Source of the DNA: Candidatus Woesebacteria bacterium
GTDB lineage: Bacteria > Patescibacteriota > Microgenomatia > UBA8517
NCBI GenBank assembly: GCA_020060565.1
Contig: JAGVAE010000001.1
Location: 2,671 to 66,670 of the forward strand
Length of the DNA: 64,000 nt
Direction: 5' to 3'
The notes beneath the pieces were generated by a model. That model searched no databases, was not told where the DNA came from, and worked only from the letters and a program-made list of their open reading frames with translations. This document shows positions 9,069 to 38,031 of this stretch, piece by piece; within the stretch, counting starts at the first letter, position 1, and the number at the start of each line of letters is the position of its first letter. Position numbers and translations under genes: made by a program.

Positions 9069-9644
9069 ATGAAAAATCTTACCTTTAGCTTATATTCCCT
9101 TCCAAACACTGTTTTTACCACCCGTGAGATCGCCTTGATTCTTAGATGGGATGATCTAGATAAGATTAAGTCAAAGATCAATTATTATGTCAAAAAAGGT
9201 GTACTTAAAAAACTTAGAAGAGGACTTTTCGCAAAGAGTAATGGCTACGAGATTCTAGAAGCATCCAATAAGATCTTTACACCCTCTTATATAAGTCTGG
9301 AAACTGTATTACAAAAAGAGGGTGTAACCTTTCAAAATTATGACAGAACCATTTTTGTAATCAGTTATCAAACAAGGGAAATTGTTTTGGACGGGTTTAC
9401 AATTGTTTTTAAGAAAATTAAAGATGAAATACTAACCAATCTAGAAGGAATTAACACAGAAAACGGTTATTCGATTGCGGGTAAGGAGAGAGCATTTTTA
9501 GATGCCTTATATTTGTATAAAGATTATTATTTTGATAATTTAGATAATATAGATTTCGAAAAAGCGGAAAAAATTTTGCCAATTTACAATAGCAGAGCTG
9601 TTGAGGCAAGATTTAAAAAATATGTTAAATATCGCTTCTCATAA
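9069..9644 (+). CDS. AbiEi-type antitoxin (type IV TA, winged-helix transcriptional regulator)
   Basis: N-terminal wHTH resembling the AbiEi_4 domain (FTTREIALIL...YYVKKGVLKKLRRGLF). Immediately upstream of, and slightly overlapping, a nucleotidyltransferase toxin gene. Confidence 0.65.
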   Translation: MKNLTFSLYSLPNTVFTTREIALILRWDDLDKIKSKINYYVKKGVLKKLRRGLFAKSNGYEILEASNKIFTPSYISLETVLQKEGVTFQNYDRTIFVISYQTREIVLDGFTIVFKKIKDEILTNLEGINTENGYSIAGKERAFLDALYLYKDYYFDNLDNIDFEKAEKILPIYNSRAVEARFKKYVKYRFS

Positions 9645-10305
9645 ATTGGTAATGATAGATGTTCTTAAGGGAATTTATTCCGATATTTCTATCGGGTCGT
9701 TTATTGGATTTAAAGGAGATACGGCACTTTACCTCTTTTACAAACTACCTCGTTTCAGTGTCGACCTGGATTTTGATCTTCTTGACGAATCAAAGAAGGA
9801 AACTGTTTTTTCTAGAGTTTCCGAAATCTCTGAGAACATAGGTGAGCTTAGAGAAGGTAGGGAAAAATATTTCACACTCTTTTGGTTGATCAGTTACGAA
9901 AAAGGTAGAAGGCAGTTAAAAATTGAGATGTCAAAAAGAAATTTAGGATCATCCTATGAAGTAAAAAGCTACCTAGGACTTCCTGTTTTGATAATGAAGA
10001 AAGAGGATATGTTCGCAAACAAGTTAACAGCACTTTTGGGTAGAAAAGTACTTGTTAACCGTGATATTTTTGATATTTGGTTTATGGCTAAAAACAACTG
10101 GGATATTAATTCAGAGCTTTTGGAAAAAAGGACAAATATGCAACCGAAAAAGTATTTGCAAAAATGTATTGACCGTTTGGAAAAAGACCCTCCCAAAAGT
10201 ATTCTTAACGGATTGGGAGATCTACTGGATAACAAAACAAAAGACTGGGTGAAGAAGAATTTGATTAAAGATACCATCTTTTACCTAAAACTTCTGAGTG
10301 AGTAA
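9601..10305 (+). CDS. AbiEii/AbiGii-family nucleotidyltransferase toxin
   Basis: GFKGDTALYL...RFSVDLDFDL, the characteristic GGTAL / RxSxDLDF NTase motif of DUF1814/AbiEii. The real start is probably an internal Met near 9622. Confidence 0.7.
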   Translation: MRQDLKNMLNIASHKLVMIDVLKGIYSDISIGSFIGFKGDTALYLFYKLPRFSVDLDFDLLDESKKETVFSRVSEISENIGELREGREKYFTLFWLISYEKGRRQLKIEMSKRNLGSSYEVKSYLGLPVLIMKKEDMFANKLTALLGRKVLVNRDIFDIWFMAKNNWDINSELLEKRTNMQPKKYLQKCIDRLEKDPPKSILNGLGDLLDNKTKDWVKKNLIKDTIFYLKLLSE

Positions 10306-10433: not shown

Positions 10434-11525
10434 ATGGACGAAACGTTTCAAACACTTATAGAAATTTGGGAAGATATCAAAACTTTCTTTTTTGAATTAA
10501 CTAAATTTATTCTTAAATCTCTTCATTTGAGTTTTATTAAAGTTGAAGAAAGAAAGGGGATTGTGGTCAATGCACTTTATCGCCAAAGGGGAAAACTTTC
10601 CCAACGTCTAACCCATACAGGAATGGGGGCTTTAGCAGTACTGGGGGTTATGATTGCTCCTATTATTTCTCAAGAATTTCCAGGTACCAGTGTTAATCCT
10701 TGGCAAGTAACAAGTGCTCCTGCAGTTCTTTCCGCTTCAACCCAAGACCCAGGTCTTGATACAGAGATATCTAGTAAAGTAAGGGATAATATCATTAACT
10801 ATACTGTCTTGGATGGTGATACTGTTTCTTCTATTGCTGATAAATTTGGAGTATCTGCTGACTCGATTCGTTGGCAGAATAGCTTATCTGGGGACAAAAT
10901 AAAAGTAGGTCAGACTATTGAAATCTTACCCGTTACAGGTATTGCTCATAAAGTACAAAAAGGGGATACGGTTTATTCAATTGCTAAAAAGTACGACGCA
11001 GAAGCTCAGGCTATAGTTAACTTTCCTTTTAATACATTTGCAAACGATGAAACTTTTGAGCTTGCAATAGGGCAAACTGTAATAGTTCCTGATGGTGTTA
11101 TGCCAAAGGCGGCAGTTACACCTCGTATACGTCAAATTACCCCTTCTGCAGGTACTGTAGTGGCTTCAGGACAATTTGTATGGCCTACACAGGGAACAAT
11201 CTCTCAGAGATATTCTTGGTATCATCCTGGTATTGATATTGCCAATAATGCAGGCCCAACCGTGGTTGCGGCAGATTCGGGAAGAGTAGAGTATGCAGGT
11301 TGGGATGGATCAGGATATGGCAATATGGTTCTTATCGATCATGGTAATGGATTTAAGACCAGATACGGCCATTTAAGCCAAGTAATGGTAGTTTCGGGTC
11401 AAACTGTGGCTCGTGGAAATGCAGTTGGGAAAATGGGCTCCACTGGGCGTTCAACAGGAATCCACCTTCACTTTGAGATATATAAAGGTGGAACACGACC
11501 AAATCCACTTTTGTATTTGAAGTGA
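10434..11525 (+). CDS. LysM-domain M23 family metallopeptidase
   Basis: N-terminal TM, two LysM repeats (YTVLDGDTVSSIADKFGVS / HKVQKGDTVYSIAKKYD), then an M23 domain with HPGIDIA..., GYGNMVLIDHGNGFKTRYGHL and GSTGRSTGIHLHFEI motifs. Confidence 0.85.
   Translation: MDETFQTLIEIWEDIKTFFFELTKFILKSLHLSFIKVEERKGIVVNALYRQRGKLSQRLTHTGMGALAVLGVMIAPIISQEFPGTSVNPWQVTSAPAVLSASTQDPGLDTEISSKVRDNIINYTVLDGDTVSSIADKFGVSADSIRWQNSLSGDKIKVGQTIEILPVTGIAHKVQKGDTVYSIAKKYDAEAQAIVNFPFNTFANDETFELAIGQTVIVPDGVMPKAAVTPRIRQITPSAGTVVASGQFVWPTQGTISQRYSWYHPGIDIANNAGPTVVAADSGRVEYAGWDGSGYGNMVLIDHGNGFKTRYGHLSQVMVVSGQTVARGNAVGKMGSTGRSTGIHLHFEIYKGGTRPNPLLYLK
11482..11525 (+). repeat. direct repeat copy 1 (3' end of the M23 peptidase gene)
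   Basis: ataaaggtggaacacgaccaaatccacttttgtatttgaagtga. The 24-nt core caaatccacttttgtatttgaagt is identical to the copy at 12761-12804. Confidence 0.75.
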
Positions 11526-11531
11526 GAAATA

Positions 11532-12746
11532 TTAAATAATTGACCCTCCCCAAATGTAATTATCGAATTTTGGGGACAAGTTTCTACCAATTAGTTGGAT
11601 ACTTTTGACATTTGCAATAGATGCAATCTTCTTTAGATTTGAAAGGTCGTCACTTGTTGGTGTTTCTTTTGCTTCTGCGGCAAGTTTCCCATCTATAATA
11701 AAGTCTATCTCATTACCATTTTTAAGCGAATAATATTGAATTTGATTATTTCTTACCAACTGGTTATAAAGACTGTTCTCAAATTGAGAACCACTATTTA
11801 GATCAGTCAAAATATTCGCGATTCCTGTATCGCAAAAATAAAGTTTTCTGGATTTGACTATCTCGCGGCCGATATTTTTTGTAAAGACTCCGATGGTACT
11901 AATAAGATAGGTTTTTTCAAAAAAAGAAATATAATTTGCAACTGTCGGTCTGGATAACCCTGTAAGTCTTGACATTTTTGAATATTCGATTCTACTACCG
12001 ACCCTGGAGGCTAAAAGTTTTGCCAGATTATATAAATTTCTTTCGTCACTGAAATCAGCCAAGCTTTTTATGTCTATACTTACATAAGAGGAGAAAATAT
12101 CTTTTAAGTTGTCAATTTTTTCTTTCTCATTTTCCAGTAAAACTACTTGGGGGAACCCACCGAAGCGTATATATTCATTATAATAGGATGAGAGTCTACT
12201 ATATTCTAGTTTATCGAAAGTGCCATGTTTCCATTGAGAATCTGTAAAATTAACATTTTTAAAAGTTAAAAATTCACCAAAATCAAGCGGGTATAACTCA
12301 AAGATTTTTTTCCTGCCTGAAAGGGATTCAGAAAAAAGATTTTTTAGATAATATGAACTTGATCCTGTAACAATAAATTTAATTCCATAATGATCGTAAA
12401 GATATTTGATAGCACTTGGTGAATCTGGGGCGAGCTGAATTTCATCTATTGCAACAATCATATTTTCAGGCGATAGATTTTGTGAGATTAAATTGTTTCT
12501 GATCGCTTCATAGTTTTTCTCCTCAAATAACTCTCGGATATCTAGCCGTTGAAAGTCCAAATAAATTGAGTTTTTGTTAGGTAGATCGGACAAGAGCTGT
12601 TTAACTAGTGTGGTCTTTCCTGTTCTTCTCATGCCTGTCAATACCGTTACTTGTGGGGTTTTAGCATGGGAGAGGAGTTCTGGGTATATTTTTCGGGGAT
12701 ATATCATTGCAATTGATAGTTTACAAAAAGTATTACTTTTTGTCAA
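11532..12746 (-). CDS. AAA-family ATPase (AAA_14 + DUF4143 type)
   Basis: Walker A GMRRTGKTTL, Walker B IVAIDEIQ, and a C-terminal region typical of DUF4143 orphan ATPases. The ORF-track start is a TTG; the probable real start is the ATG at about 12708 (MIYPRK). Confidence 0.75.
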   Translation of the reverse strand: MTKSNTFCKLSIAMIYPRKIYPELLSHAKTPQVTVLTGMRRTGKTTLVKQLLSDLPNKNSIYLDFQRLDIRELFEEKNYEAIRNNLISQNLSPENMIVAIDEIQLAPDSPSAIKYLYDHYGIKFIVTGSSSYYLKNLFSESLSGRKKIFELYPLDFGEFLTFKNVNFTDSQWKHGTFDKLEYSRLSSYYNEYIRFGGFPQVVLLENEKEKIDNLKDIFSSYVSIDIKSLADFSDERNLYNLAKLLASRVGSRIEYSKMSRLTGLSRPTVANYISFFEKTYLISTIGVFTKNIGREIVKSRKLYFCDTGIANILTDLNSGSQFENSLYNQLVRNNQIQYYSLKNGNEIDFIIDGKLAAEAKETPTSDDLSNLKKIASIANVKSIQLIGRNLSPKFDNYIWGGSII

Positions 12747-12760
12747 GTCGCGTATCCATT

Positions 12761-12804
12761 ATAAAGGAGGGTCACGCCCAAATCCACTTTTGTATTTGAA
12801 GTAG
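12761..12804 (+). pseudogene. direct repeat copy 2, a duplicated remnant of the M23 peptidase C-terminus (..YKGGSRPNPLLYLK*)
   Basis: Differs from the YKGGTRPNPLLYLK* end of the intact gene at 11525 only in its first 14 nt. It terminates the spurious ORF 12574-12804. Confidence 0.6.
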
Positions 12805-12816
12805 GTATTATTAAAG

Positions 12817-15800
12817 CTAATTAGTTTCTGGAGTGAACTTTTCTGGGGAACCACCATTCGCAATATAGTCTAAAAATTTATATCTTTCGGGGCTGTTTTT
12901 TTCTAGAAATTCTGGAGCAGTCAAATAAAGAGCCATAGAGTCTGCTAAATCTTCCCAGGCTGCTCTCGTTAAATTAACTGATTTATCATAACTTTGTGCA
13001 TAGGGAGTGGGGGGCTTCTCGTTTAGAAGTTGATCATTTCTTCCATTGTAAAAGTAATTTATAAATGATGCTGGTAGGCTTCCGTTCACATATTTTCCAT
13101 TCTTATCAGTTTCATATTTAAGGGTATGAACAAACTCATGCACTAAAGAGGCTAATGGAACATCTTCCTTTTTTAGATATGAATCTAAACCTGGAACTCT
13201 CAAAAGATGACTTTGATAGAGGTAGTTATTATTAAAAGTAATACTAGTCTCAAGAGTTGACCCCTTGTTTGTGAGATCGTTGCCTGTTAAGCCGTAGTAA
13301 CCCTGACCCAAGTCATTTTCTCCGACTTTAATAATTTTGATTTTATTGCTCAAAAGTTGAGAAAAAGGGGCGAGATTGGTTAATGCTTTGGAGTAATTTG
13401 TTTTATCATTGGGACTAAGGCCGTATCCAGAGAGTTCTAGAGTTACGGTTTTATCTGCTTCTTTTTTCTTTGAATATACAACTTCAATTTTACTATCATT
13501 GATTGTTTTAATTTTTGAAGAAACAGTGTTTTTTGAGTTCTCAACAGAGAGGTTATTATTTTTAATCATTTGATTATTGGTAATTGTGTTTACAATTGAT
13601 TCAGCAATTATATCTGCACCATATTTGTTTGGATGAACACCGTCTTTACCAACACTTTTAGAAAGGTCATACCGACTCGCATACGAACTCCCCATAATTA
13701 CAGGTGAATCTGAAGTTGATATCTGTGAAGCTAACTCCGCGAATTTATTATTCAACTTTTCAGCATCCTCTGTATAGGGTAGACCTTTGTAAGAAAATTT
13801 CGGAACAGAAGTAATAACAACTTTTATATTAGGATTAACATTGTCACGAAGGTAATTAATAATATACTGCATATTAGGGATTATTTTGGTATCTATATCA
13901 TTTTTGTTAACCAAATCATTTATTCCAAACTGTAATACGACCAGATTAACATTTTTATCAAATTCTACTTTTTGTGGGTTTTTATCATAAAGCCACTCTT
14001 TAGCTTTTAATGCATTAACAATCGCGGCTGTAGAATATCCTGTATGACCTTCGGTTATTGTTCCTGCGGTAACTGATTTTTGGTTTCCTAAAAACTCTAT
14101 GTCATAGCCTGCTGCTTTAAGCTGTTCATACAGTGAATCAGATAGATAGCCTTGAGTTAGGGAATCTCCCAATATTAATACATTTGTTTTTGAGAAAGTA
14201 GGTTCCTCTTTCTTTGGTAGTTCTGGAACGGCTTCAGAAAATTGTTGTTGTTTTGAAGTCTCAACCGACGCTTCCCCTTTTTGTATTCTCTGGTTAGAAT
14301 CTTTTATCTTTTCATTCTGATCTTTATCAACGGATACAGGAAGTTTATCTGATGGGGCAGGGAAGATGGATTTAATCTGGTCAATTACTCCTTGCCATAG
14401 ATTTACAGAAAAGTCTATTGCTTTTGGAATTTCATTAGCTGTATTTTGTAAAATAGTTCTTCCCAAAATTGTTCCTCCCACTATATTGACAGCTGCCCCT
14501 ACGGCCAATTTACCATTACTTGTACCAAGGAAAGTTTTAAGATTGTCTGAAACCGTCGGTTTGACCTCAATTGGGACAGTTTTGGTATCAGCTTCAGAGA
14601 CAGATGTTTCTAGTGTTTTCGGAAATGTTGCAGATGGCTCGTCTGAAACTAATTTTTCAGGGAAAAGAGCCTTTGCTTCATCTAAGTTTATCTCTCGATA
14701 TGCAAACCGAGCTTTTGGTACACCATCGAGAGGATAGGATTCCAAACCAGGTATATACAAATATGGCTCTGATATTTTTTCACCAAAAGTGTTGGTGTAT
14801 ATTTGTTGTGCTGGTACTCTTATTTCGGTCATTGCATAAGGTCGAACCTCATAAATGTTTTGAATTTTTTCTATGGGAATTAGGTCTCTAACAATTACAT
14901 CTCCCAAAAAATCAATTTCAGGATTTGATGGTTTTTTAATTGATATGATATAAGAGGGTCTTTCAAATGTGGCCATAGCAAAATAACCCTCACCCTCAGC
15001 TGCATAACCTAAGGCGCGTTCGCTGTTTTGACTAAAATATATACTATCAGTATACCCAACACTTTTCATAATTGGTCCAGATTCAAGTATGTTGTTTTGA
15101 AGTATGGATTGCATTCCTTCAAAATTAATTCCCCTAAAGATAAGTTCTTCTCCATCAATTGTCGAAGGAATGTTTGAATCACCGAGAACGTGGCCATACA
15201 CATCACTAACCAGCGGTTTATATCCAGAGTCTGCAAGGAACTGAATTTCTCCATTTTCTACAACAGATAGTGAGCGATCGTAAAAAAACTCGCCGTTTTT
15301 GAGAATGTTGGAATTTGTTTCAGGGGTCAAAACTATCCTTTTTGTTTCATTATTCCATTTGCCGTTCCAATGGGATGCATAACGTTCAAGATGTTCTCCC
15401 ATATCAAAAACATCACCCATCTTTCCGCCCTTGAGATTTTTTATAGGTAAATCATTAATCCAAGTTTTTTCATTGGTCATCTGGGGTGGTGCAACTGCTA
15501 GATAGGGTTCATCTGGAGCTACTAATGTTCCCACCTCTTCGTGTATTGGAACTACCGGGGTAGTGGGATTTTCTGTTCTTAATTTTGGCAGCCATCCTCG
15601 TTTATCTTTAATATTTTCATTCCACCAACCTTTAGTATTGATTACTGCGGGGGATTGGGTAATGTTTTGTGTGGTTTCTGTTAGTTTATTCCAAGTACTG
15701 GTAAAAATGTTTTGATTTTGAAGGGGAACTATGCCATTTGTATTTCTATTGATTGGTTTGCCTGTATTGATGTTAAATTTACCTTTTTCGTCTTTGAATA

Positions 15801-18729
15801 TAGTGACTATTGGAGTATCACGACGAGTGTTTGTATCAGAACTTAATATACTATCATTATAAGTAATTCGTAAATTATCCTCCAAAACAATATTATTTGC
15901 TTTTACCCAAGCATTATTTTCTTTATCGAAGTAGTAAATGGGACTGTCGTTAGTTCTTTGCAAAACATAAGTTCCATCAGTGGTTTGGCCAACAATTAGT
16001 CCTTCAGCTTCTTCTGCTTTCTCAAGAATATTTTTACCATTAACTTTATGTACCTTTTTTAGTGGAACTTTAGGGGTGGTGTCAGTGGCTACCCTTGCGT
16101 TTTCTAGATAATAACTAAATGATGGCACCCCTATTGAATGGTTTCCATTATAAAATATACTTACAGTGTTATCAGCTTGAATTTTACTTCCAGCTTGAAT
16201 TTTTACAGATTGACCTGGAGCGCACGACCTTCCATCAATTATTATTGTTCTTCCTGTTGTATTTTCAACACTTACTCCATCTCTAGATTTGGTGACTTTA
16301 ACCAACTGAGGATCTGACAAAGATGATTCATGTATTCTAAATTGGCTGTCTGGAGAATTTCCCAAACTATATGTTGTTGTATCAGTCCCTATTTTTCCAG
16401 GTATACCTGGTCGGTTGGGTTCAAGGGTGACTGGCACCATTGAATCTGTGGCTTTTGAAGGTTCAAAGGTAAGATCTGAGGACTTTAATTGGATAGGTTG
16501 GGGATTAGTTGGTTCTTGTGAAACCTTAGGCTTTCCAAGATTATCTACAAAACCCACAATCCTTGCCTGTGCATTCTGAGCAGTTTCTTTTGACTTATCC
16601 CAAGCTTGAGCAAGTGGGGAAGGGAAAGTTGCTGGAATCTCTTTAGGTGCAAAAAGCATATCAGATTTATTTGTAATTTTTATGGGTGCATAGGGTACAA
16701 GTTGGCTTTCATCAGGCATGACTGGACGGGGATTTGATGCAGCTGCTGCCAATGGGTCGGATGGGTGTATCTCTGGGATTCCCTTTGATATAGATGGAAT
16801 ATCAACTTCAGATATCTTACGGAGAGGATTTCCTATTGATAATTGTCCTTGTTTATAATCTATAACCCCAAAACCAGCATCAGCAACCACTGCAACAATT
16901 GAACCTGCGCAATCTAAAACTGATCTTCCTTCTTGAGTGCAGGTGGTAATGGCTGTTGGAATATCAACGACTAAGTTTATACCTGATACTCCAGTATTTA
17001 AACTTCGTGCTAAATTAAGTGATTGAACAGTGGAGGCGGTATTGGAAAATGTTTTTATTAAATAGTTGGCTGTTCCTAAATTTGTCCAAGATAAAGCAGC
17101 AAGACCTGTTTGCTTCCAAGCCTCAAGCGAGCCAGGGTTTTCCACTTGAGCCACGGTTGCATCAACGGTCTGTTGAACGGACGATATTGCTCCCAGATGC
17201 ATAAATCCTGTTGCCACAGCACTTCCAACACTTCCCGCAGTAAAAACAGCCGGTGCAGCAAACACACCCCCCAATGCTGCGGCAGTAATCTTAAACTCAT
17301 TTGTTATTTGGGTGTTCCAATTTTTACATTCAGTACTATTTGGATTATTTTTGCAGGCTTCTGTACCTTCCAAATAAACTTGTGAGAGTTGGGGTGTAGT
17401 AAAATTTTGTCCGATTTGGTTTGTATTTCCCGGAAGGGGATTGTAGGCATTACAAACTCCTCCAAGACATATTTTCTGATCGCTCTTTGCAACTTGAGTT
17501 TCTATCAAAGGTGGGGTATTGATTTGGGGTGGTTTTTCCTGACAAATACCATTGGATGCGTATCCTGATTCACAATACGAAGCGTATTGAACACGTGTCC
17601 CGATTGGATATTTAACCATTACACTTCCTTGTTCGTTTGAAGTGATTGAAGCTGTCTGAGCTTTTGGTACTTCTTGTTTTTTGGTTGATGTCTCTCCGAC
17701 GAATTTACCCGTACTTAGGTCTAAATTTCCAGATGTTGTAACGAGATATGTTTTACCCTGAGCGGGGACTATTTGTGTTTGTGTAGATGGAATTGTAGAA
17801 ACTGTTATTCGTGTGGTCTTGTTTGTTGTTGGGTCATAGGTTGTGGTGGTTGTGTTGGTTACTTGATCTCCTCCTCCTGCAACACCCAGACTTCCATAAG
17901 TGGTTGTGACTGTGGTTGTTGGTTTTTTGTTTTCGATATCGTCTATTCTTCGTAAAGCAGCTTCATTTCTGGATTGTTGTACTTTTTGTGTTGCTTCTGC
18001 CTCAGCTGCAGCTTTATCAGCCATTTGTTTCTCATAATTGGCCTTATTTACAGTTGCTAATGATGTCTCTACATATGTATTAGGATCGTTGCCTGTTCCT
18101 GCGATTGGATAATAAATTTCGCCGATACGATAATAACCTGCGATTTCTACTCCAGGAGCGCACCCTCCTCTTGTGAGACAATCATATCCTGCTCCATTAA
18201 GAGGGGCTTCGGTGTTAACAGCATCTTGACCATGATAACCACCATTGATGGTTTTTACCTTGTTAATAGATGTTGTAGTGGAAACAGTTTTGGTATAAGT
18301 TACATTGCCTTTATGGCAGACATTGCCTTCACAAACTTCTTCACATTCTTTTTGTCCGACTCCACCACATTCATTACTACTGGAACTTTTGGCCGCTTCT
18401 GCAGCTGCTTTGTTGGCATTACTATCAATTTCTATAGCTCTTGGGTCTTCATTGGCCAGTTGGGCTCTATAACTTGCCATAGCCTCTGCATCATTTGGAA
18501 TCTGTTTGGGGGCTCCTGTCATGGGATCTGTAACTGTTATTGTTCCAGCTGCTTTTGGTGAAAAAATTTCTTTTATGTTGGGATTAATTGTTACAGATAA
18601 GATGGTTAGGGTAGAGAAGACTAAAAAGCCAATAAGCGTAATACTTAATATGTCAGCTATTCCACGCTCAAAAAACCCAACAGGTTTAGGCATTAAATAT
18701 ACTTTATTAAATCGCGTGAAAAATAGCAA
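12817..18729 (-). CDS. giant (1970 aa) membrane-anchored multidomain surface protein with an SGNH/GDSL hydrolase domain and a C-terminal HExxH motif
   Basis: N-terminal TM (ILSITLIGFLVFSTLTILSVTI), a Cys-rich segment (NECGGVGQKECEEVCEGNVCHKGN) and Thr-rich tracts. SGNH blocks: I ILGDSLT (14161-14175), II GHTGYS, III FGINDL, V DGVHPN (about 13651-13664). LVHEFVH at 13123-13140. The ORF-track start is a TTG. Confidence 0.8.
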   Translation of the reverse strand: MLFFTRFNKVYLMPKPVGFFERGIADILSITLIGFLVFSTLTILSVTINPNIKEIFSPKAAGTITVTDPMTGAPKQIPNDAEAMASYRAQLANEDPRAIEIDSNANKAAAEAAKSSSSNECGGVGQKECEEVCEGNVCHKGNVTYTKTVSTTTSINKVKTINGGYHGQDAVNTEAPLNGAGYDCLTRGGCAPGVEIAGYYRIGEIYYPIAGTGNDPNTYVETSLATVNKANYEKQMADKAAAEAEATQKVQQSRNEAALRRIDDIENKKPTTTVTTTYGSLGVAGGGDQVTNTTTTTYDPTTNKTTRITVSTIPSTQTQIVPAQGKTYLVTTSGNLDLSTGKFVGETSTKKQEVPKAQTASITSNEQGSVMVKYPIGTRVQYASYCESGYASNGICQEKPPQINTPPLIETQVAKSDQKICLGGVCNAYNPLPGNTNQIGQNFTTPQLSQVYLEGTEACKNNPNSTECKNWNTQITNEFKITAAALGGVFAAPAVFTAGSVGSAVATGFMHLGAISSVQQTVDATVAQVENPGSLEAWKQTGLAALSWTNLGTANYLIKTFSNTASTVQSLNLARSLNTGVSGINLVVDIPTAITTCTQEGRSVLDCAGSIVAVVADAGFGVIDYKQGQLSIGNPLRKISEVDIPSISKGIPEIHPSDPLAAAASNPRPVMPDESQLVPYAPIKITNKSDMLFAPKEIPATFPSPLAQAWDKSKETAQNAQARIVGFVDNLGKPKVSQEPTNPQPIQLKSSDLTFEPSKATDSMVPVTLEPNRPGIPGKIGTDTTTYSLGNSPDSQFRIHESSLSDPQLVKVTKSRDGVSVENTTGRTIIIDGRSCAPGQSVKIQAGSKIQADNTVSIFYNGNHSIGVPSFSYYLENARVATDTTPKVPLKKVHKVNGKNILEKAEEAEGLIVGQTTDGTYVLQRTNDSPIYYFDKENNAWVKANNIVLEDNLRITYNDSILSSDTNTRRDTPIVTIFKDEKGKFNINTGKPINRNTNGIVPLQNQNIFTSTWNKLTETTQNITQSPAVINTKGWWNENIKDKRGWLPKLRTENPTTPVVPIHEEVGTLVAPDEPYLAVAPPQMTNEKTWINDLPIKNLKGGKMGDVFDMGEHLERYASHWNGKWNNETKRIVLTPETNSNILKNGEFFYDRSLSVVENGEIQFLADSGYKPLVSDVYGHVLGDSNIPSTIDGEELIFRGINFEGMQSILQNNILESGPIMKSVGYTDSIYFSQNSERALGYAAEGEGYFAMATFERPSYIISIKKPSNPEIDFLGDVIVRDLIPIEKIQNIYEVRPYAMTEIRVPAQQIYTNTFGEKISEPYLYIPGLESYPLDGVPKARFAYREINLDEAKALFPEKLVSDEPSATFPKTLETSVSEADTKTVPIEVKPTVSDNLKTFLGTSNGKLAVGAAVNIVGGTILGRTILQNTANEIPKAIDFSVNLWQGVIDQIKSIFPAPSDKLPVSVDKDQNEKIKDSNQRIQKGEASVETSKQQQFSEAVPELPKKEEPTFSKTNVLILGDSLTQGYLSDSLYEQLKAAGYDIEFLGNQKSVTAGTITEGHTGYSTAAIVNALKAKEWLYDKNPQKVEFDKNVNLVVLQFGINDLVNKNDIDTKIIPNMQYIINYLRDNVNPNIKVVITSVPKFSYKGLPYTEDAEKLNNKFAELASQISTSDSPVIMGSSYASRYDLSKSVGKDGVHPNKYGADIIAESIVNTITNNQMIKNNNLSVENSKNTVSSKIKTINDSKIEVVYSKKKEADKTVTLELSGYGLSPNDKTNYSKALTNLAPFSQLLSNKIKIIKVGENDLGQGYYGLTGNDLTNKGSTLETSITFNNNYLYQSHLLRVPGLDSYLKKEDVPLASLVHEFVHTLKYETDKNGKYVNGSLPASFINYFYNGRNDQLLNEKPPTPYAQSYDKSVNLTRAAWEDLADSMALYLTAPEFLEKNSPERYKFLDYIANGGSPEKFTPETN

Positions 18730-19540: not shown

Positions 19541-19777
19541 TTGTGGTACAATTTAGGCATGACACCCCAGTTTATTCGTAAATATTTTTGGGATATTAAG
19601 ATTGAAAAGGCTGATCCAAAAAAACATCCAGAGTATTTTATTAGTAGGATTTTGGAGTTTGGAGATAGAAAGTCTTTTGGCTGGCTGAAGTCTTTTTTTG
19701 GGATGGAGAAGATTCGTAAAGTTGTAAAATCTAGAAAATTGACACCTAAATCTCAAAATTTCTGGCAAAATGTTTGA
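19541..19777 (+). CDS. small hypothetical protein (78 aa), putative partner of the downstream nucleotidyltransferase
   Basis: Overlaps the next ORF by 8 nt, a TA-like organisation; I recognise no wHTH. Confidence 0.4.
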   Translation: MWYNLGMTPQFIRKYFWDIKIEKADPKKHPEYFISRILEFGDRKSFGWLKSFFGMEKIRKVVKSRKLTPKSQNFWQNV

Positions 19778-20378
19778 AAATACACTTTCTTCCAATAGTC
19801 TTAAGTTTATTAAAGAAATCAAATCTGATAGTTTGCCAAATGATTCCTATCTAGGAGGGGGGACGGCAATTGCTCTTCAAATTGGCCACAGAAAGTCTCT
19901 GGACTTGGATTTTTTTACTCAAACTCAATTTAATGAGACTCAATGGCAACAAAAGTTGGAAGAAGACATTGGGTTTGACCTGATTCAAAAAGATTGGCAG
20001 ACATTAGTTGGAAGCGTGCAAGATATCAAGTTTTCTCTTTTTTATTATAAACATGCCTTGATTGATAAAACTAAGGATTATTACAATATTAAATTAGCCT
20101 CACTTGAAGATTTATCTGCAATGAAATTGGACACTGTCATTTCCAGGGGAACAAGGCGGGATTTAATAGATATCTATTTCCTGGCACAAAAATTTTCCAT
20201 TCCTGGGATGTTTGAATTCTATGATAGAAAGTTTGGAAACTTTAAAGACCGTGAGATTATGATCAAAAAAGCTCTTATTTATTTTGAAGACGCAGAGAAG
20301 GATGAGACCCCTGATATGCTTATTCCTTTCGATTGGAATGAGTTAAAAACATTCTTCAAAAAGGAAATTGAACTTTAA
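19770..20378 (+). CDS. short AbiEii-like nucleotidyltransferase (DUF1814-type)
   Basis: YLGGGTAIALQIGHRKSLDLDFF, the same NTase motif as the other AbiEii copies. At 202 aa it is short for the family. Confidence 0.6.
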   Translation: MFENTLSSNSLKFIKEIKSDSLPNDSYLGGGTAIALQIGHRKSLDLDFFTQTQFNETQWQQKLEEDIGFDLIQKDWQTLVGSVQDIKFSLFYYKHALIDKTKDYYNIKLASLEDLSAMKLDTVISRGTRRDLIDIYFLAQKFSIPGMFEFYDRKFGNFKDREIMIKKALIYFEDAEKDETPDMLIPFDWNELKTFFKKEIEL

Positions 20379-20394
20379 ATAGGTTGTAAGTAAG

Positions 20395-20465
20395 GGCTTG
20401 TAGGTAAGTGGTATACCGTATCATTCGCATTGATAAATCGGCGGTTCGATTCCGCCCAAGTCCAC
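20395..20465 (+). tRNA. tRNA-like element with a CGC (Ala-type) anticodon and a defective acceptor stem; probable tRNA pseudogene or att-site remnant
   Basis: By hand it folds as GGGCTTG-TA-GGTA/AGTGGTA/TACC-G-TATCA/TTCGCAT/TGATA-AATC-GGCGG/TTCGATT/CCGCC-CAATCCA-C. The D, anticodon and T arms are canonical (T-loop TTCGATT), but acceptor pairs 1:72 (G:A) and 4:69 (C:T) are mismatched. Confidence 0.4.
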
Positions 20466-21196
20466 TATTGTAATTTTGACTTCAGTTTTTGGATGAGTAG
20501 ATTCTTCAAATTTTTTGCAATTTCTCTTTGTGATCTGGGTAAAAATTGTGTTAAATCCATATCTAGTTTGGCTTGAGGATAGGATTCAATCTTTTTTAAT
20601 AAATCTGAGATATTAACATCCTTTTTAAGAGGAATTCCTTTTTCCAGTAGAAACCAGACATCAAAAGAATCCCTTCCTTTATTTCGATCCAGAAGAGCCT
20701 CAATTTTTTCTGCAAGAATTTCCTTATTTGAAAAATGTGATATTAAAGGAAACATGGGGATTGGGAATTTGGTTATTAGGGGAGAAACTACAATCTCTGG
20801 TGTATTTTTGATTTGGGTAAAATCCAAACGAATAGTTAAGGGGAACTTAAATCCAACTGGCTGATATTTTATGCGGTAACGGATACCGTTTTTGCCAGAA
20901 TACAAAAGAAGTATTTGCATTTTTGGCATCTCTTTTTGTATGGCTTGTTCCAACTTTTCCAATATTTGTTTAATCTGTTCTTTGTTGTAGGTGGTAGAGA
21001 AATCTAGATCTTCTGAGAATCGTGAGGAACCCAACAGCAATCTAATAGCTGTTCCACCCTTGAAATAAATTTTATTTGCTTTTGCATCTTGGTAAAGATA
21101 ACTCAAGAATAAAAGCTGAAAATGTTCGCGTATGATAGTGAAAGTATCTATTTGATAGTCTTTTGCTAGAGCATCTATTTGTTCTTTAGTAATCAT
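20465..21196 (-). CDS. AbiEii/AbiGii-family nucleotidyltransferase toxin
   Basis: YFKGGTAIRLLLGSSRFSEDLDFS motif; 243 aa. Its stop codon abuts the 3' end of the tRNA-like element. Confidence 0.75.
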   Translation of the reverse strand: MITKEQIDALAKDYQIDTFTIIREHFQLLFLSYLYQDAKANKIYFKGGTAIRLLLGSSRFSEDLDFSTTYNKEQIKQILEKLEQAIQKEMPKMQILLLYSGKNGIRYRIKYQPVGFKFPLTIRLDFTQIKNTPEIVVSPLITKFPIPMFPLISHFSNKEILAEKIEALLDRNKGRDSFDVWFLLEKGIPLKKDVNISDLLKKIESYPQAKLDMDLTQFLPRSQREIAKNLKNLLIQKLKSKLQ

Positions 21197-21783
21197 TTGA
21201 TGATTTTCTTAATAATCTTAGACATCTTTTTATTATCAAATCTTCTAGTGTAAATAACAAGCTTTTGCCTATCAATTCCAGATAATTCCATTTCATCAAA
21301 ATCTAAATTCCGCAATCCCTTTAGTCCTAAATAAATATAATCCAGAAGTGCCTTTTCGGGGTCGGCAATTAAAAAGTCATCTTTTTTTTCGTACCCCCAA
21401 TATAACTTGTTTGCTATTTGTGAATATTGGAACTCCTTTTGTTGAATATTGATATTTTTACTTTTTTTGACAGATATGGATGTTATTTGGTAGGGGAAAC
21501 CAGTAATTATTCCATAAAATGATAGTGCAGATTCGAGAGAAATGTAGGAGGGTTGGAGGGTAAAATTAGCTATTAGAAAGTCATCTGGCGGATTAAGTAA
21601 AAAACTGTATTTACCATTTGTTAATTTCTGGATTAGACCTTTTTTTTCCAGTCTTTGAATCCTTTTGTATAGGTTCAAACTATTTGAAATATCAAACAAT
21701 CTTCCAAAATCTGTTAATGAAAATAGAGAAATTTGTTTTTCTTGCAAAACTTTAATAATATCGGTTGCAGAATACGTTCCCAT
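21193..21783 (-). CDS. AbiEi-type antitoxin (winged-helix)
   Basis: N-terminal wHTH (LYKRIQRLEKKGLIQKLTNGKYSF). Its stop overlaps the toxin start by 4 nt (ATGA). It resembles the 9069-9644 protein (SYISLE...L motif). Confidence 0.7.
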   Translation of the reverse strand: MGTYSATDIIKVLQEKQISLFSLTDFGRLFDISNSLNLYKRIQRLEKKGLIQKLTNGKYSFLLNPPDDFLIANFTLQPSYISLESALSFYGIITGFPYQITSISVKKSKNINIQQKEFQYSQIANKLYWGYEKKDDFLIADPEKALLDYIYLGLKGLRNLDFDEMELSGIDRQKLVIYTRRFDNKKMSKIIKKIIK

Positions 21784-23918: not shown

Positions 23919-26900
23919 TTACTGTACTTGTACTATCCACCAATTGAACTTTACATCAATATCGATAGGATTCGTAAAACCGACTACAAATTGTCCATTC
24001 TCTTTACTTTTTACATACAAAACATTGTTAAGAGTTGGGGAGGTAGGGGTTACATAGACCAAAGTTAGATCTGTAACTTTGGGATTTTTGATGATTATCT
24101 CGCTTGTTTCTGCAGGAACAGTTGCCTGTCCAATCATTGAATTTGTAGTAATAACTCCATCTATAATAGTGCCTGAGACTGTCGCGTCGGAAGCGGCAAC
24201 AATTAGTTCGGGGGTGGTAACAGAATTAAGTGTTGCTGATCCTGTTGCATTGATTATTTTGGCATTAAGCTCTAAAGTTGTAATTTTTCCTGCAACATAC
24301 AAGTTTCCAGCCATTCTCATGTTTCCTTGGGTATCAATTGAAATAAGCCCTCCCATAATTTCAACTGGTGCCATGGCGAGAGATTGAATTTGGAGTGGGG
24401 CAGAAAGACTATTAATAGTATTGCCGTTAAGTCCAATTACCAAGTCGCTTCCTAGGGTTAAGGAATCTGCAATGGAAACTGAGCTCATTGCAGCATTACC
24501 TGTTACAAATAAATCATTTGTAATAAGTTCTGCTATATTTGCACTTCCACTTGCAGTTAAATTGGCTCCTGCAGTTGCAGTAAAAAGAAGAGATTGATCT
24601 GCTGACACTTGGGCAAGTAAAGCTTCAATTTCATCAATGTTTTGTGATCTGACGACTCCACTAAATGAGGCATTACCCATATTGTCAATTGAGGCTACTT
24701 CTGACCCTTCTGAGTTTTGAATTGCAAATTTACCTGATGGAGTAGCTTCCGACCCAATTCTTACTGTTACATCTGTTTCATCAGCAAGAGGGGAGATAAG
24801 TGGGGTTTGAATCCTCTGGGCTATTAATTTATCAGTATCAACTACACCTGCTTTGATACTGGCAATGAGCGCCTGGCTGAAGATTCCAATGTTATTTATT
24901 GTTTCCCCTGTAGCATCTTTAATTTCGTATGCAATTCCGGCCGCATTTACTTTTGCATTTAATAAGTAGGCATTTATATCAGAAAGGATTGGAGTTAAAG
25001 AACTTCCGTTTCCTATAAAAATCATTACATTGTCTTTTTGGTATGTTGGATCCCAAGGTTCGAGAGCGGTTCCAATTGATTTTTCACCCAATACTGCTTT
25101 TTTAGCACGTCCTGGGGTAGAGGAGGAGGTGATTGGATCTCCTGTTTTAATTGCTGCCGAGTCTGTTGCAACTTTGACAGGAACTCGTCCAACAAGAGCC
25201 AGAAGTCTTCTATCTTCAGCTTCAATTCCCAAGGTTTGACCTGCTTTGGTTGAAATTACACCAATAAGTCCAGGGTCACGAATTCCATTTGACTTTCTAA
25301 GAATTGGTACTCCGTAATCGTCCAAGTTGCCACTAACCGAGACTACATCTCCTGAAACAATATCTTGATTGTCTACTCCATAATACTCAGCCAAGTCAGC
25401 TCCGTATACAACTGCGTCAAGCCTAAGTTCCTGATTTTGGCCAGTGTAGTTATATAACCTGACATTATTTGCATCTGTTTGAGTTATTTTGTAGCTGTTG
25501 TTATAACTAAACTGAACATTGTTTACCTGGGGCTGGAAACTTGTATTGGTGGTAGTAAATATTGCTCTATACTGCAAGTAATTGTTGGGGGTTGAGACAA
25601 TTGGTGAACCACTACTTACAGTCATAGCTTTTTCAGCTTTGAAATTATCAAAGTGAATTGTATTCCATGGGTTATTCAAGTTTGTTACTCTAAGTTTGGT
25701 AACACCGTCCTTAGAAGTTGAAACTATATCCGACAAATCCCAATATACTTTTTGCCAAGTACTTGTGGCGTCAATTGTTACAGTTTCTTCTTGTTCTGTT
25801 CCTGCAGCTTCTCCAAAACCAAGCTTTACAGTATTTCCAGATGAGGTTGCATATACCCAAGCAGTTAAGTAGTCATATCCAGAGATGTCAGTTGCACCAA
25901 TAGTTGCTTCTGCGTAACCTCCTCCTTGGGCGGTGTTAACAAATTGAGTTGTGTTTCCCGCAGTTCCTTCATCTTCATCTTCAAATTGATCTACATTCCT
26001 TGTTACTGTGCCATCAGCAACTGTTGCACTAGATCCTGTCCAATCTGTGTGGGTGTTGGCATCTTGAAGGGAAAGGTAATTGGTTGAGGCTATCGCAGGT
26101 TTCCAAGCTTCCCATGTTCCATCAGTTGGATTGGTTGAATTTCCAGTCCTTGTTTGGAATTCTACTTTGCCCCAAGCAGAAGGGGTAGCTTCCCATCTAA
26201 GATCACTTAATGAAACTGCGTTTGGTGTACTAATTACTCCCGAATGATACAAACCATATGGATAGTATGGTTGAACTGTATAGGCTGCAGTGGGGGAGTT
26301 GGTTGAACCTGTATAAGAGGTTGTGTAGTAAATAGCTGTACGTCCTTTGCCTCCCGCACCACCCGCAACAGGTAAACTAGCTCCTCCCGCACCACCCGAT
26401 CCATTTGTTGCAGATACTAAGTTTGTACCTAAAGTAACCGTACCAGCAGATAATTTAACAGATCCTCCAGCTCCACCTCCACCTCCAGCACTCCAATTTG
26501 AACCTGCACTACCGTTTGCACCATTTGACGAGACGGTTCCGCTTACTGTAACACTTGCTGCTGAGATTGTAACGATTCCTCCTCCCGCACCTCCAAGTCC
26601 ACGGGTATCGGAAGAATACTGTCCTGCTGCACCTCCACCCGACCCGAACATAAGATCGGCAAGTGCTGCATCTCCATAAGTTCCACCACCACCCCCACCT
26701 CCAGCTCCTGATGCACCTCCATTACCTGAGGTATTGGTTCCTCCATTTGATCCATTATCTCCTCCATAACCATAAGTTCCGTAACCACCACCTCCACCTG
26801 CGCGACCTCCAGAGTTTTGATCTCCTAATCCCCCTCCTCCTGATCCTCCAAGGGCGGCAGAACCTGTGCCTCCTGCAGGATCTCCACCACCTCCACCACC

Positions 26901-32905: not shown

Positions 32906-33421
32906 TTAGTATTTAGAATTTAGAATTTCATGGTTAGTCTCTAACCATGTCAAGAACTGTTTGATATCACTTAGGTAGTTTTTGATTGTGCTAGAAGAAA
33001 CCTTTTCGGCCTCAAGAAAAGCTCTGAAGTCGTTGACGACTGGATCCATATTTGGTTTTTCTTTAGCTCCAATTCCTACGTTTTCAATGCCACTCATAAA
33101 GTCAAGATCAATTATTTGTGTTGCAGTTAAGAAGCGTGAGAGATGCCTAAGGGTAGAGAGCCTGCGATTAACAGTTTTAACAGGAACTGAATTTTCAGTC
33201 ATGTAGTTTTTGTAACTTTTTGCCAGATCAAAAGTTAAAAACGGAACGACCTCACTCAATGATTCAACGTAAGAGCCAAATGATCTGATCTTAAGAATTG
33301 CCCAACCAATGAAGTGGCTTAAATCGCTTCTGTAGTTCTTGTGGGATTTAGGTGAAATACCAAGAGATTCAAGATATTTTACGAATTCGTTTTTGATGGA
33401 GTCTAATTGTTTTTCGGGCAT
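32906..33421 (-). CDS. orphan protein of two tandem phage-integrase N-terminal SAM-like (core-binding) domains, with no catalytic domain
   Basis: Two ~80-aa repeats with the ..KNYRSDLSHFIGWA.. and ..KNYLSDIKQFLTWLE.. pattern typical of tyrosine-recombinase N-terminal domains. 171 aa in total, with no R..HxxR..Y catalytic region. Its stop lies 5 bp upstream of the giant gene. Confidence 0.55.
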   Translation of the reverse strand: MPEKQLDSIKNEFVKYLESLGISPKSHKNYRSDLSHFIGWAILKIRSFGSYVESLSEVVPFLTFDLAKSYKNYMTENSVPVKTVNRRLSTLRHLSRFLTATQIIDLDFMSGIENVGIGAKEKPNMDPVVNDFRAFLEAEKVSSSTIKNYLSDIKQFLTWLETNHEILNSKY

Positions 33422-36938: not shown

Positions 36939-36943
36939 CTATT

Positions 36944-38029: not shown

Positions 38030-38031
38030 TT

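What the first reader, a model, noticed from the sequence alone, without database searches (positions are those of the whole stretch)
11482..12804. AAA (DUF4143-type) ATPase gene inserted into the 3' end of the M23 peptidase gene between ~43-bp imperfect direct repeats
The last 43 nt of the LysM/M23 peptidase gene (..YKGGTRPNPLLYLK*) recur 1279 bp downstream at 12761-12804 (..YKGGSRPNPLLYLK*). The central 24 nt are identical; the first 14 nt diverge. A minus-strand orphan AAA/DUF4143 ATPase gene fills the space exactly between the two copies. This pattern suggests a gene cassette acquired by recombination within the peptidase 3' end. The divergent copy would then be a relic of the donor's peptidase allele, rather than a simple target-site duplication. 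DUF4143 ATPases are frequent orphan or defence-island passengers, so this may mark a small mobile or defence-associated insertion.
Basis: seen in the sequence. Interest (0 to 1): 0.6.

Follow-up and report, generated by a model that had tools for sequence, protein, structure and literature searches.

The report
Defence-gene cassette inserted in peptidase end
A single candidate anti-phage gene with its own promoter has been inserted into the tail of a cell-wall peptidase gene, leaving a spare copy of that tail; the same integrase-less pattern recurs at other conserved genes in many ultra-small (CPR) bacteria.

Summary
The last 45 nt of the LysM/M23 peptidase gene (11481-11525) recur at 12760-12804, with a 25-nt exact core and a spacing of 1279 nt. 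Between the copies lie only an AAA_14/DUF4143 ATPase gene (11532-12707, minus strand) and its promoter.

It is an insertion. A relative with a 92%-identical peptidase has the empty site (L114). Two other relatives carry the same ATPase at the same place (L064, L149), one with a second, unrelated DUF4143 ATPase in tandem and its own relic.

The cassette is much younger than its hosts: four-fold-site identity is 0.72, against 0.40-0.47 for the flanking genes.

The pattern recurs. 10 of 58 homologous loci have target-derived flanking repeats of 29-165 nt, at the 3' ends of MgsA, ClpC-like, DedA and giant-protein genes, often in arrays with toxin-antitoxin and AbiE cassettes.

Repeat copies differ like two functional alleles: 54 of 73 mismatches fall at third codon positions and no relic has a premature stop.

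The elements contain no integrase, terminal inverted repeats or attC-like hairpin.

The ATPase matches PADLOC candidate defence family PDC-S01 and folds as a STAND/Orc1-like ATPase with a PD-(D/E)XK nuclease.

Best reading: a defence cassette spread by recombination at a gene-end hotspot. The step that creates the first junction is unknown.

The parts
10434..11525 (+). LysM/M23 peptidase gene, the target of the insertion
   Evidence: Pfam Peptidase_M23 E 1e-32 and two LysM domains. 80 orthologous loci were fetched. 78 of them have no ATPase next to the gene.
11481..11525 (+). Repeat copy 1: the 3' end of the peptidase gene now in use (YKGGTRPNPLLYLK, stop TGA). Weak similarity continues to 11536.
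11526..11531 (.). 6-nt spacer between the convergent stop codons of the peptidase and ATPase genes
   Evidence: Read from the sequence. The spacer is also 6 nt in L064 and 5-6 nt in L149, depending on register.
11532..12707 (-). Cassette gene of 391 aa: STAND/Orc1-like AAA+ ATPase, winged helix and PD-(D/E)XK nuclease (AAA_14 + DUF4143), matching PADLOC candidate defence family PDC-S01
   Evidence: Pfam. PADLOC E 4.6e-67. AlphaFold model with pLDDT 88.7; Foldseek matches to Apaf-1, Orc1/Cdc6, MalT and Avs5. Invariant Walker A/B residues and D335/E345/K347.
12718..12746 (-). Cassette promoter (TTGACA, 17 nt, TAAACT) overlapping a 13-nt palindrome (12720-12732 / 12734-12746). Homology among cassettes at different loci begins here.
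   Evidence: 10 of 12 promoter positions; inverted repeat I8; ACTTGACAAAWAGTAWTACTTTTTGTAAAGT conserved in about 40 loci, with no conservation upstream of it.
12747..12759 (-). Outermost 13 nt of the cassette on the promoter side (ATGGATACGCGAC on the ATPase strand)
   Evidence: L149 has the same end (ATGGATATACCAC) next to a different neighbour, a 17-nt relic.
12760..12804 (+). Repeat copy 2: displaced relic of the peptidase 3' end (YKGGSRPNPLLYLK, stop TAG), in the native position 12 nt from the stop of the convergent giant gene
   Evidence: Orthologous relics occur in L064 (two) and L149. Empty site in L114.
12817..18729 (-). Convergent giant gene (1970 aa, GDSL lipase domain), the native downstream flank

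Best explanation
Positions 11526-12759 are a horizontally acquired single-gene cassette: a promoter and a gene for a STAND-like ATPase with a PD-(D/E)XK nuclease, a candidate anti-phage system (PDC-S01). It sits at an insertion hotspot, the 3' end of the conserved LysM/M23 peptidase gene, where two convergent genes leave almost no intergenic space.

The insertion keeps the peptidase intact because a second copy of its last ~45 nt comes with the event. One copy finishes the gene. The other (12760-12804) is left as a relic beside the native downstream gene.

Inferred mechanism: the cassette spreads between genomes by host homologous recombination after DNA uptake, not by an enzyme it encodes. 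One crossover falls in the peptidase gene. The other falls in the short relic, or at an illegitimate junction.

Once a cassette is flanked by two copies of the gene end, it can be moved into any genome that has that gene. Repeated events build tandem arrays.

Shown: the insertion, its recurrence at this site, its youth relative to the hosts, the allele-like repeat copies, and the absence of a recombinase or terminal repeats in the element.

Inferred: the recombination route, and which copy is the imported one.
For: Empty site. L114 has a 92%-identical peptidase with the same C-terminal residues. Its stop is followed after 1 nt by the convergent gene. 78 of 80 orthologous loci lack an adjacent ATPase.

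Same site filled independently. L064 reads: peptidase, ATPase2, relic 2, ATPase1, relic 1. L149 has the reverse cassette order, with a degraded ATPase2.

Cassette younger than hosts. Four-fold-site identity between the window and L064 is 0.72 for ATPase1, 0.47 for rho and 0.40 for the peptidase.

Family-wide recurrence. 10 of 58 loci have flanking direct repeats of 29-165 nt, each with a different sequence. In 150 cross-locus controls the maximum score was 14. The targets are 3' ends of MgsA, ClpC-like, VTT/DedA and giant-protein genes.

Arrays. Cassettes carrying HepT/MNT, AbiE, BrnT/CopG, PIN and further DUF4143 ATPases are separated by copies of one target segment.

An AbiE cassette also sits at the peptidase 3' end, with a 219-nt repeat (about 76 codons).

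Two alleles rather than decay. 13, 6 and 54 mismatches fall at codon positions 1, 2 and 3 (P = 1.5e-12). No relic has a premature stop. The third-position share (0.74) matches true orthologues (0.71-0.78). A mixture with half neutral decay is rejected at P <= 0.002.

Mosaic pattern. Identical blocks sit beside diverged blocks: L096 has ~65 nt near-identical, then ~25% divergence; L032 gives P = 0.0006; the window gives P = 0.04.

Donor sequence carried along. L149 has an 11-nt fragment ATTTGAAGTAA next to ATPase1 that does not match L149's own gene end.

Nothing in the element to move it. Homology among cassettes runs only from the promoter to the stop codon. There are no terminal repeats and no recombinase.

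The window encodes ComEA, ComEC and RadA.
Against: Recombination explains spread between homologous sites. It does not explain how a cassette first acquires a repeat at a new gene.

Repeat length differs between events at this one site (17, 36-39, 45 and 54 nt; 219 nt for the AbiE cassette), yet the cassette end ATGGATA is constant in the window and L149. That looks more like defined element ends than random illegitimate joints.

A 25-45 nt relic is very short homology for a crossover between genomes only ~77-80% identical.

DUF4143 ATPases are strikingly over-represented among the cassettes, which a purely host-driven process does not predict.

No mosaic signal was detectable in the window's own peptidase gene.

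Within the window itself the allele-like evidence rests on only 4 substitutions plus the stop codon.

Tyrosine recombinase genes lie near two of the other loci.
Confidence: 0.5

Rival explanations
1. The cassettes are integrase-less passengers moved in trans by a site-specific (tyrosine) recombinase encoded elsewhere in the genome or on a helper element. The repeats would be attL/attR sites, and the element-borne att would mimic the 3' end of the target gene, as in islands that integrate into tRNA or gene ends and in cis-mobilisable elements.
For: The target is the 3' end of a conserved gene, the gene is restored by the event, and tandem accretion happens next to the functional copy. This is the classic signature of integrase-mediated islands.

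In some pairs an identical core is flanked by diverged sequence.

A 181-aa catalytic-domain-only tyrosine recombinase lies 2.8 kb beyond the L151 array. A full XerC/D-like integrase abuts the repeat in L032.
Against: There is no integrase in any cassette. The 64-kb window has none either, apart from a 171-aa ORF carrying only SAM-like domains, 20 kb away.

The targets are many unrelated sequences. Repeat boundaries vary between events at the same site (17-54 nt, and 219 nt for the AbiE cassette).

No conserved att-like sequence exists at the cassette ends.
Confidence: 0.17
2. The DUF4143 ATPase/nuclease mobilises its own gene. It would recognise or cut conserved gene ends and promote insertion of the promoter-plus-gene unit with long, variable target duplications. 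That would make it a single-gene autonomous element, with other cassettes perhaps riding in trans.
For: The family is ~70% identical across several CPR classes and sits at many different loci.

Cassette boundaries are sharply defined: promoter to stop codon. The 5' end is the same in the window and L149 despite different relic lengths.

Nuclease and ATPase catalytic residues are invariant. A conserved palindrome lies at the cassette's 5' end.

Several divergent DUF4143 ATPases pile up at the same hotspots.
Against: AbiE, toxin-antitoxin, EamA, GDPD and glycosyltransferase cassettes show the same repeat-flanked arrangement.

The repeat copies are two alleles rather than fresh duplications.

The fold resembles STAND/NLR-type sensors with a nuclease effector, which suggests defence and not transposition.

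There are no terminal inverted repeats. About 80% of loci show no repeat at all.
Confidence: 0.15
3. An in-situ duplication of the peptidase 3' end arose at the time of a one-off illegitimate insertion (a true target duplication). The two copies then drifted apart, with no further mobility.
For: Some family members have perfect or near-perfect repeats: L042 (126 nt, 100%), L023 (165 nt, 99%) and L043 (29 nt, 100%).

A 7-nt TATTAAA match at the stop-side junction in the window could be junctional microhomology.
Against: The mismatches carry the codon-position signature of two selected alleles, and no relic has a premature stop.

The same cassette occupies the same site in hosts that are saturated at synonymous sites.

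Cassette order differs between L064 and L149.

The window's mismatches are clustered (P = 0.04).
Confidence: 0.1
4. The repeat is a metagenome assembly artefact that joined two strain variants.
For: The window comes from a metagenome-type assembly, and the repeat is shorter than typical k-mers.
Against: The same architecture, including the junction between relic and promoter, appears in independent assemblies from other samples and pipelines: L064 and L065 (ENA) and L149 (JGI). It also appears in dozens of other loci.
Confidence: 0.02

Closest known systems
Genomic islands and integrative elements that insert into the 3' end of tRNA or conserved protein genes and carry a replacement 3' end (attL/attR direct repeats), including integrase-less cis-mobilisable elements and tycheposon-type island arrays. 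This comparison is from my own knowledge.
   Same: The target is the 3' end of a conserved gene and the gene stays intact. A displaced relic copy marks the far end. New elements stack next to the functional copy, giving arrays separated by partial target repeats.
   Different: The element is about 1.2 kb: one gene and a promoter. It has no integrase or excisionase and no conserved att. Repeat length varies between events at one site. Many unrelated target genes are used.
Integron cassette arrays and CALINs (attC clusters lacking an integrase)
   Same: Arrays of small, mostly single-gene cassettes rich in toxin-antitoxin and unknown genes, separated by similar repeats.
   Different: The repeats are copies of a host gene end, not attC hairpins (fold z-scores -2.0 to +0.8). 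The cassettes carry their own promoter and lie in either orientation. There is no intI/attI platform.
Core defence hotspots exchanged by recombination in flanking core genes, and homology-facilitated illegitimate recombination or transformation-generated duplications in naturally competent bacteria. This comparison is from my own knowledge.
   Same: Defence genes lie between conserved core genes with no mobility genes. There is allele-like mosaicism at the borders, and competence genes are present.
   Different: Here the gene end is duplicated and the relic itself seems to supply the second homology arm. Nothing like this has been described for CPR bacteria in the papers I could search.
PADLOC PDC-S01 (candidate single-gene defence system; AAA_14 + DUF4143 / COG1373). 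DUF4143 is listed as a PD-(D/E)XK family of unknown function in PMC3424549.
   Same: Full-length HMM match (E 4.6e-67), the same two-domain architecture, and a defence-island context.
   Different: Anti-phage activity is untested. I found no description of this family behaving as a mobile, repeat-flanked cassette.

Membership tests
PDC-S01 / AAA_14-DUF4143 ATPases | Full-length match to the family profile | tested here: met
   PADLOC PDLC04789: E 4.6e-67, residues 1-349 against profile positions 1-338 of 375. Pfam AAA_14 E 3e-32 and DUF4143 E 7e-26, both above their curated cut-offs.
PDC-S01 / AAA_14-DUF4143 ATPases | Intact Walker A/B and PD-(D/E)XK catalytic residues | tested here: met
   G25, R27, G30, K31, D88, E89, D335 and K347 are invariant, and E345 is nearly invariant, across 34 sequences down to 26% identity.
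PDC-S01 / AAA_14-DUF4143 ATPases | Protects against phage | not testable with these tools
   The only evidence is association with toxin-antitoxin and AbiE neighbours.
Integron cassette / CALIN | Cassette bounded by an attC site (imperfect palindrome that folds as single-stranded DNA) | tested here: not met
   Repeats from the window, L007 and L146 do not fold better than shuffles: z = -2.0 to +0.8 with weak energies. The window repeat is a conserved coding sequence.
Integron cassette / CALIN | Promoterless cassettes downstream of an intI/attI/Pc platform | tested here: not met
   The cassette has its own conserved promoter. No intI was found in the window.
Integrase-mediated integrative element | Element encodes a tyrosine or serine recombinase | tested here: not met
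   The only gene between the repeats is the ATPase.
Integrase-mediated integrative element | Direct repeats at both ends derived from the target, with the gene restored | tested here: met
Integrase-mediated integrative element | Fixed att core shared by all copies of the element | tested here: not met
   Repeat sequences differ by locus. Boundaries vary at one site (17-54 nt). No conserved sequence lies outside the promoter-to-stop interval.
Transposon / insertion sequence | Transposase, terminal inverted repeats and a short fixed-length target duplication | tested here: not met
   No transposase domain. No inverted repeats at the ends. Duplications range from 17 to 219 nt.
Homing endonuclease gene | Nuclease gene copied into the cut allele without target duplication | tested here: inconclusive
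   A nuclease domain is present, but the insertions carry duplications. Cleavage specificity cannot be tested here.

The most novel reading that the evidence does not exclude
Promoter-plus-gene DUF4143 (PDC-S01) units may be a previously unrecognised kind of mobile element that needs no integrase or transposase. Either the encoded STAND-like ATPase/PD-(D/E)XK nuclease drives insertion at conserved gene ends with long, variable duplications, or the duplicated gene end acts as a portable homology handle that lets RecA stand in for an integrase. Either way, this would build integron-like defence arrays in CPR bacteria.
Probability: 0.2. Interest if true: 0.85.

Novelty: new variant of a known kind. 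Interest (0 to 1): 0.62.

Why it matters
CPR/Patescibacteria have tiny, densely packed genomes and few recognisable mobile elements, so how they acquire and shuffle defence genes is poorly understood.

This locus and its relatives show a simple, recurrent route. Single defence or toxin-antitoxin genes, each with its own promoter, land on the tails of conserved housekeeping genes. A spare copy of the tail keeps the gene intact, and the cassettes stack into arrays with no integrase in sight.

If the duplicated gene end works as a portable homology arm, these arrays would be a recombination-driven counterpart of integrons.

The locus also gives a natural system for testing whether the widespread but uncharacterised DUF4143 ATPase/nuclease family is a defence gene, a selfish element, or both. 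It offers filled, doubly filled and empty alleles of one site.

Tried and rejected
Exact-sequence look-ups of the window's own peptidase and ATPase found nothing on record.

No close relatives of the ATPase occur in IMG/VR viral contigs, so there is no sign of a phage vector.

The repeats in array loci are not tRNA, tmRNA or Rfam RNAs. They are not hairpin-forming attC-like sites.

The AbiE cassette upstream of the peptidase (9069-10305) is absent in L064 but has no flanking repeat; the best match is 9 nt. Not every insertion here leaves a duplication.

A sliding-window comparison of the window's peptidase with L114, L064 and L149 showed no clear recombination breakpoint.

I tried to decide which copy of the L096-type repeat is native by nearest-neighbour identity. 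This was inconclusive: strain contigs are 100% identical through the peptidase and 92-98% identical downstream.

Literature searches for DUF4143, COG1373, AAA_14 and CPR cassettes found only the PD-(D/E)XK classification, and nothing on mobility.

Full report
**1. The observation**

The repeat exists as described. The repeat finder reports 11481-11536 and 12760-12815: 56 nt, 86% identity, spacing 1279.

The exact core is 25 nt (11499-11523 = 12778-12802). It has no other match in the window even with 3 mismatches, and none in 100 shuffles. The only other exact direct repeats of 25 nt or more are inside a giant gene.

In the peptidase frame the copies read YKGGTRPNPLLYLK* and YKGGSRPNPLLYLK*. 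Three of the four substitutions fall at third codon positions, and both copies keep a stop codon, although a different one (TGA vs TAG). Similarity stops abruptly 5' of the Tyr codon.

**2. What lies between the copies**

There is one gene, 11532-12707 on the minus strand (391 aa from its ATG). It has AAA_14 and DUF4143 domains.

- A TTGACA-17-TAAACT promoter lies at 12746-12718. It overlaps a 13-nt palindrome.
- Six nt separate the two convergent stop codons.
- Thirteen nt separate the promoter from the relic.
- The relic ends 12 nt from the stop of the convergent 1970-aa gene.

The region is chromosomal: rho, an AbiEi/AbiEii pair, the peptidase, giant surface proteins, tRNAs and aminoacyl-tRNA synthetases. 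ATPase homologues are named Gottesman-, Curtiss-, Roizman-, Collier- and Woesebacteria, which places it among CPR Microgenomates.

**3. It is an insertion, and the site is a hotspot**

Of 80 orthologous peptidase loci from metagenomes, 78 have no ATPase beside the gene.

L114 is the empty site. Its peptidase is 92% identical, with identical C-terminal residues. The peptidase stop is followed after 1 nt by the stop of a convergent 128-aa gene, and then by the giant gene.

L064 has an 86%-identical peptidase. Read in the peptidase direction, it runs:
- peptidase
- ATPase2 (409 aa, only 26% identical to ATPase1)
- relic 2
- ATPase1 (95% identical to the window's)
- relic 1
- the 128-aa gene
- the giant gene

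Relic 1 lies 3 nt from the 128-aa gene, in the native position.

L149 is a third genome with ATPase1 (95% identical) beside the peptidase end. There the order is reversed: ATPase1 is next to the functional end, and only the promoter of ATPase2 survives. It has a 17-nt relic and a farther 57-nt relic.

In L096, L097, L099 and L100 an AbiE cassette occupies the same site, with a 219-nt repeat of the peptidase end (about 76 codons).

**4. The cassette is younger than its hosts**

Between the window and L064, identity at four-fold degenerate sites is 0.47 for rho and 0.40 for the peptidase. That is essentially saturated. For ATPase1 it is 0.72.

Together with the different cassette order in L064 and L149, this means the same cassette entered the same gene end more than once, after the hosts diverged.

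**5. The pattern recurs across the family**

In 63 genome loci with homologues I compared the 300 nt upstream of the ATPase start with the 300 nt downstream of its stop.

- Ten of the 58 loci that could be scored have flanking direct repeats of 29-165 nt: L002, L007, L018, L023, L028, L032, L038, L042, L043 and L048.
- In 150 cross-locus controls the maximum score was 14.
- L148 (85% identical ATPase) is a further case.

Each repeat has a different sequence and derives from the neighbouring gene: the 3' end of MgsA/RarA (L038), a ClpC-like gene (L048), a VTT/DedA gene (L042) and a 3643-aa gene (L152).

Many loci are arrays in which copies of one target segment separate successive cassettes. 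L007/L151 has six ~80-nt copies. L002/L152 has five. L028 has three DUF4143 ATPases and a PDDEXK_3 gene. L146 has four ATPases with HEPN/MNT and BrnT/CopG pairs.

Cassettes other than ATPases also carry flanking repeats: EamA, GDPD, a glycosyltransferase, REase-ARP and AbiE. The arrangement is therefore not exclusive to the ATPase.

**6. What defines the cassette**

Alignment of about 40 loci shows that homology begins at the promoter/operator ACTTGACAAAWAGTAWTACTTTTTGTAAAGT, about 45 nt before the ATG. It ends at the stop codon. Nothing outside that interval is conserved.

There is no recombinase, no terminal inverted repeat and no conserved att sequence. The repeats do not fold as attC-like hairpins, and they are not RNA genes.

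The outermost 13 nt on the promoter side (ATGGATA...) are shared by the window and L149, although the adjoining relics differ in length (45 vs 17 nt).

**7. The two repeat copies are two alleles**

I pooled the window, L038, L048 and L096. Mismatches fall 13, 6 and 54 at codon positions 1, 2 and 3 (P = 1.5e-12 against uniform). That corresponds to 42 synonymous and 18 non-synonymous codon differences. No relic has a premature stop.

The third-position share is 0.74. True orthologue comparisons of rho, the peptidase and the ATPase give 0.71-0.78. A model in which half the changes are neutral decay of the relic is rejected at P <= 0.002.

In several pairs an identical block adjoins a diverged block:
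- L096: ~65 nt near-identical, then ~25% divergence.
- L032: a 47-nt identical run, P = 0.0006.
- The window: P = 0.04.

That is the pattern recombination between diverged alleles would produce.

Some pairs are perfect (L042 126 nt, L023 165 nt, L043 29 nt), so recent or within-population events also occur.

**8. Which copy is imported**

The relic sits where the native gene end was (L064 against L114).

The sequence type of the peptidase end follows the cassette on its stop side:
- ATPase1 is next to ...TATTTGAAGT(GA/AA) in the window, in L064 and, as an 11-nt fragment, in L149. L149's own gene ends ...TATCTTAAATAG.
- ATPase2 is next to ...AAAATAA in L064 and L149.

This suggests the end now in use came in with the cassette, and that 12760-12804 is the displaced resident end. 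It rests on few observations.

**9. The protein**

PADLOC matches the candidate defence family PDC-S01 (E 4.6e-67). DUF4143 is classed in the PD-(D/E)XK superfamily with unknown function (PMC3424549).

Walker A/B residues and D335/E345/K347 are conserved down to 26% identity.

The AlphaFold model (pLDDT 88.7) matches Apaf-1, Orc1/Cdc6, MalT, Avs5 and plant NLRs. That describes a STAND/ORC-like ATPase with a winged helix followed by a nuclease.

Such an architecture fits a sensor-effector defence protein better than a transposase. The conserved palindromic operator suggests autoregulation; this is inference.

**10. Mechanism**

The best-supported reading is a defence cassette at a gene-end hotspot that spreads by host recombination after DNA uptake. 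One crossover falls in the conserved target gene. The other falls in the relic or at an illegitimate joint.

A donor arranged as target gene, cassette, relic can replace an empty site by an ordinary double crossover, because the relic is homologous to the recipient's gene end.

This accounts for:
- the two-allele repeats and their mosaic blocks,
- tandem accretion beside the functional copy,
- the lack of any mobility gene,
- the mix of cassette types.

The window also encodes ComEA, ComEC and RadA.

It does not explain how the first repeat arises at a new gene, why cassette ends are so sharply defined, or why DUF4143 ATPases dominate the arrays. A trans-acting recombinase stays open, because recombinase genes lie near L151 and L032. 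Self-mobilisation by the ATPase/nuclease also stays open.

**11. Verdict**

The finding is real and its interpretation largely right. On its own it is a small insertion. Its value is that it exposes a recurrent, integrase-less, repeat-flanked cassette system in CPR bacteria, and offers filled, doubly filled and empty alleles of one site.

I rate it a new variant of a known kind: gene-end integration and defence hotspots. There is a modest chance that it is a new kind of mobile element.

Noticed in passing
window 9069-10305: An AbiEi-like gene and an AbiEii toxin gene lie between rho and the peptidase. They are absent in L064, where rho and the peptidase are 77 nt apart. There is no flanking repeat. 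The promoter (TTGACAAAATAACAACGTTTTTGTAAACT) resembles the ATPase cassette's. This looks like a second, independent cassette insertion next to the same gene.
   Followed up: partly
window 19770-21783: There are further AbiEii-like genes at 19770-20378 and 20465-21196, with a partner ORF at 21193-21783. They flank tRNA-Ala (20394-20465). This may be another cassette hotspot at a tRNA.
   Followed up: no
window 12817-18729 and 23919-32900: Two giant genes of 1970 and 2993 aa. The first has a GDSL lipase domain. Its C-terminal ~250 aa have no counterpart in the L064 and L114 orthologues, which instead have a separate 128-aa gene at that position. The second contains long internal exact repeats spaced 831 nt apart (29035/29866).
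   Followed up: partly
window 32906-33421: A 171-aa ORF has only integrase N-terminal SAM-like domains and no catalytic domain. Conversely, L151 17328-17873 encodes a 181-aa tyrosine recombinase with the catalytic domain only. These may be split or minimal recombinases in CPR genomes.
   Followed up: no
window 36306-38823 and 1361-2668: ComEA (HHH_3/SLBB), ComEC (Competence and metallo-beta-lactamase domains, possibly split or frameshifted across 36944-38029 and 37885-38823) and RadA/Sms. The DNA-uptake and recombination machinery is encoded nearby.
   Followed up: partly
window 49939-52698: Three consecutive GHMP-kinase-type genes, including a diphosphomevalonate decarboxylase, followed by NUDIX and polyprenyl/undecaprenyl synthase genes. 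This is a mevalonate-pathway cluster.
   Followed up: no
L151 9847-14539 (= L007 3846-8572): Six copies of an ~80-nt repeat (86-93% identical) separate cassettes: a DUF4143 ATPase, a C39-like peptidase, an EamA transporter and small ORFs. Each copy could encode a short peptide (MNDVRTHFDPNSTDYQILKSLL...). No intact parent gene was found for this repeat.
   Followed up: partly
L146 1227-5885: Each cassette in this array is followed by AACTAATCCCCTTTTGTGGCTGGG. In the copy near 4475 the repeat is split by a ~37-nt GC-rich hairpin-like insert.
   Followed up: no
window 12718-12746 and about 40 loci: The ATPase promoter contains a palindrome (TTGACAAAAAGTA/TACTTTTTGTAAA) conserved in homologues down to ~53% identity. 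It is probably an autoregulatory operator for the protein's winged-helix domain.
   Followed up: partly
(homologue lists): Thousands of homologues sit near 70% amino-acid identity across several class-level CPR lineages. That is unusually conserved for an accessory gene and consistent with frequent horizontal transfer.
   Followed up: partly
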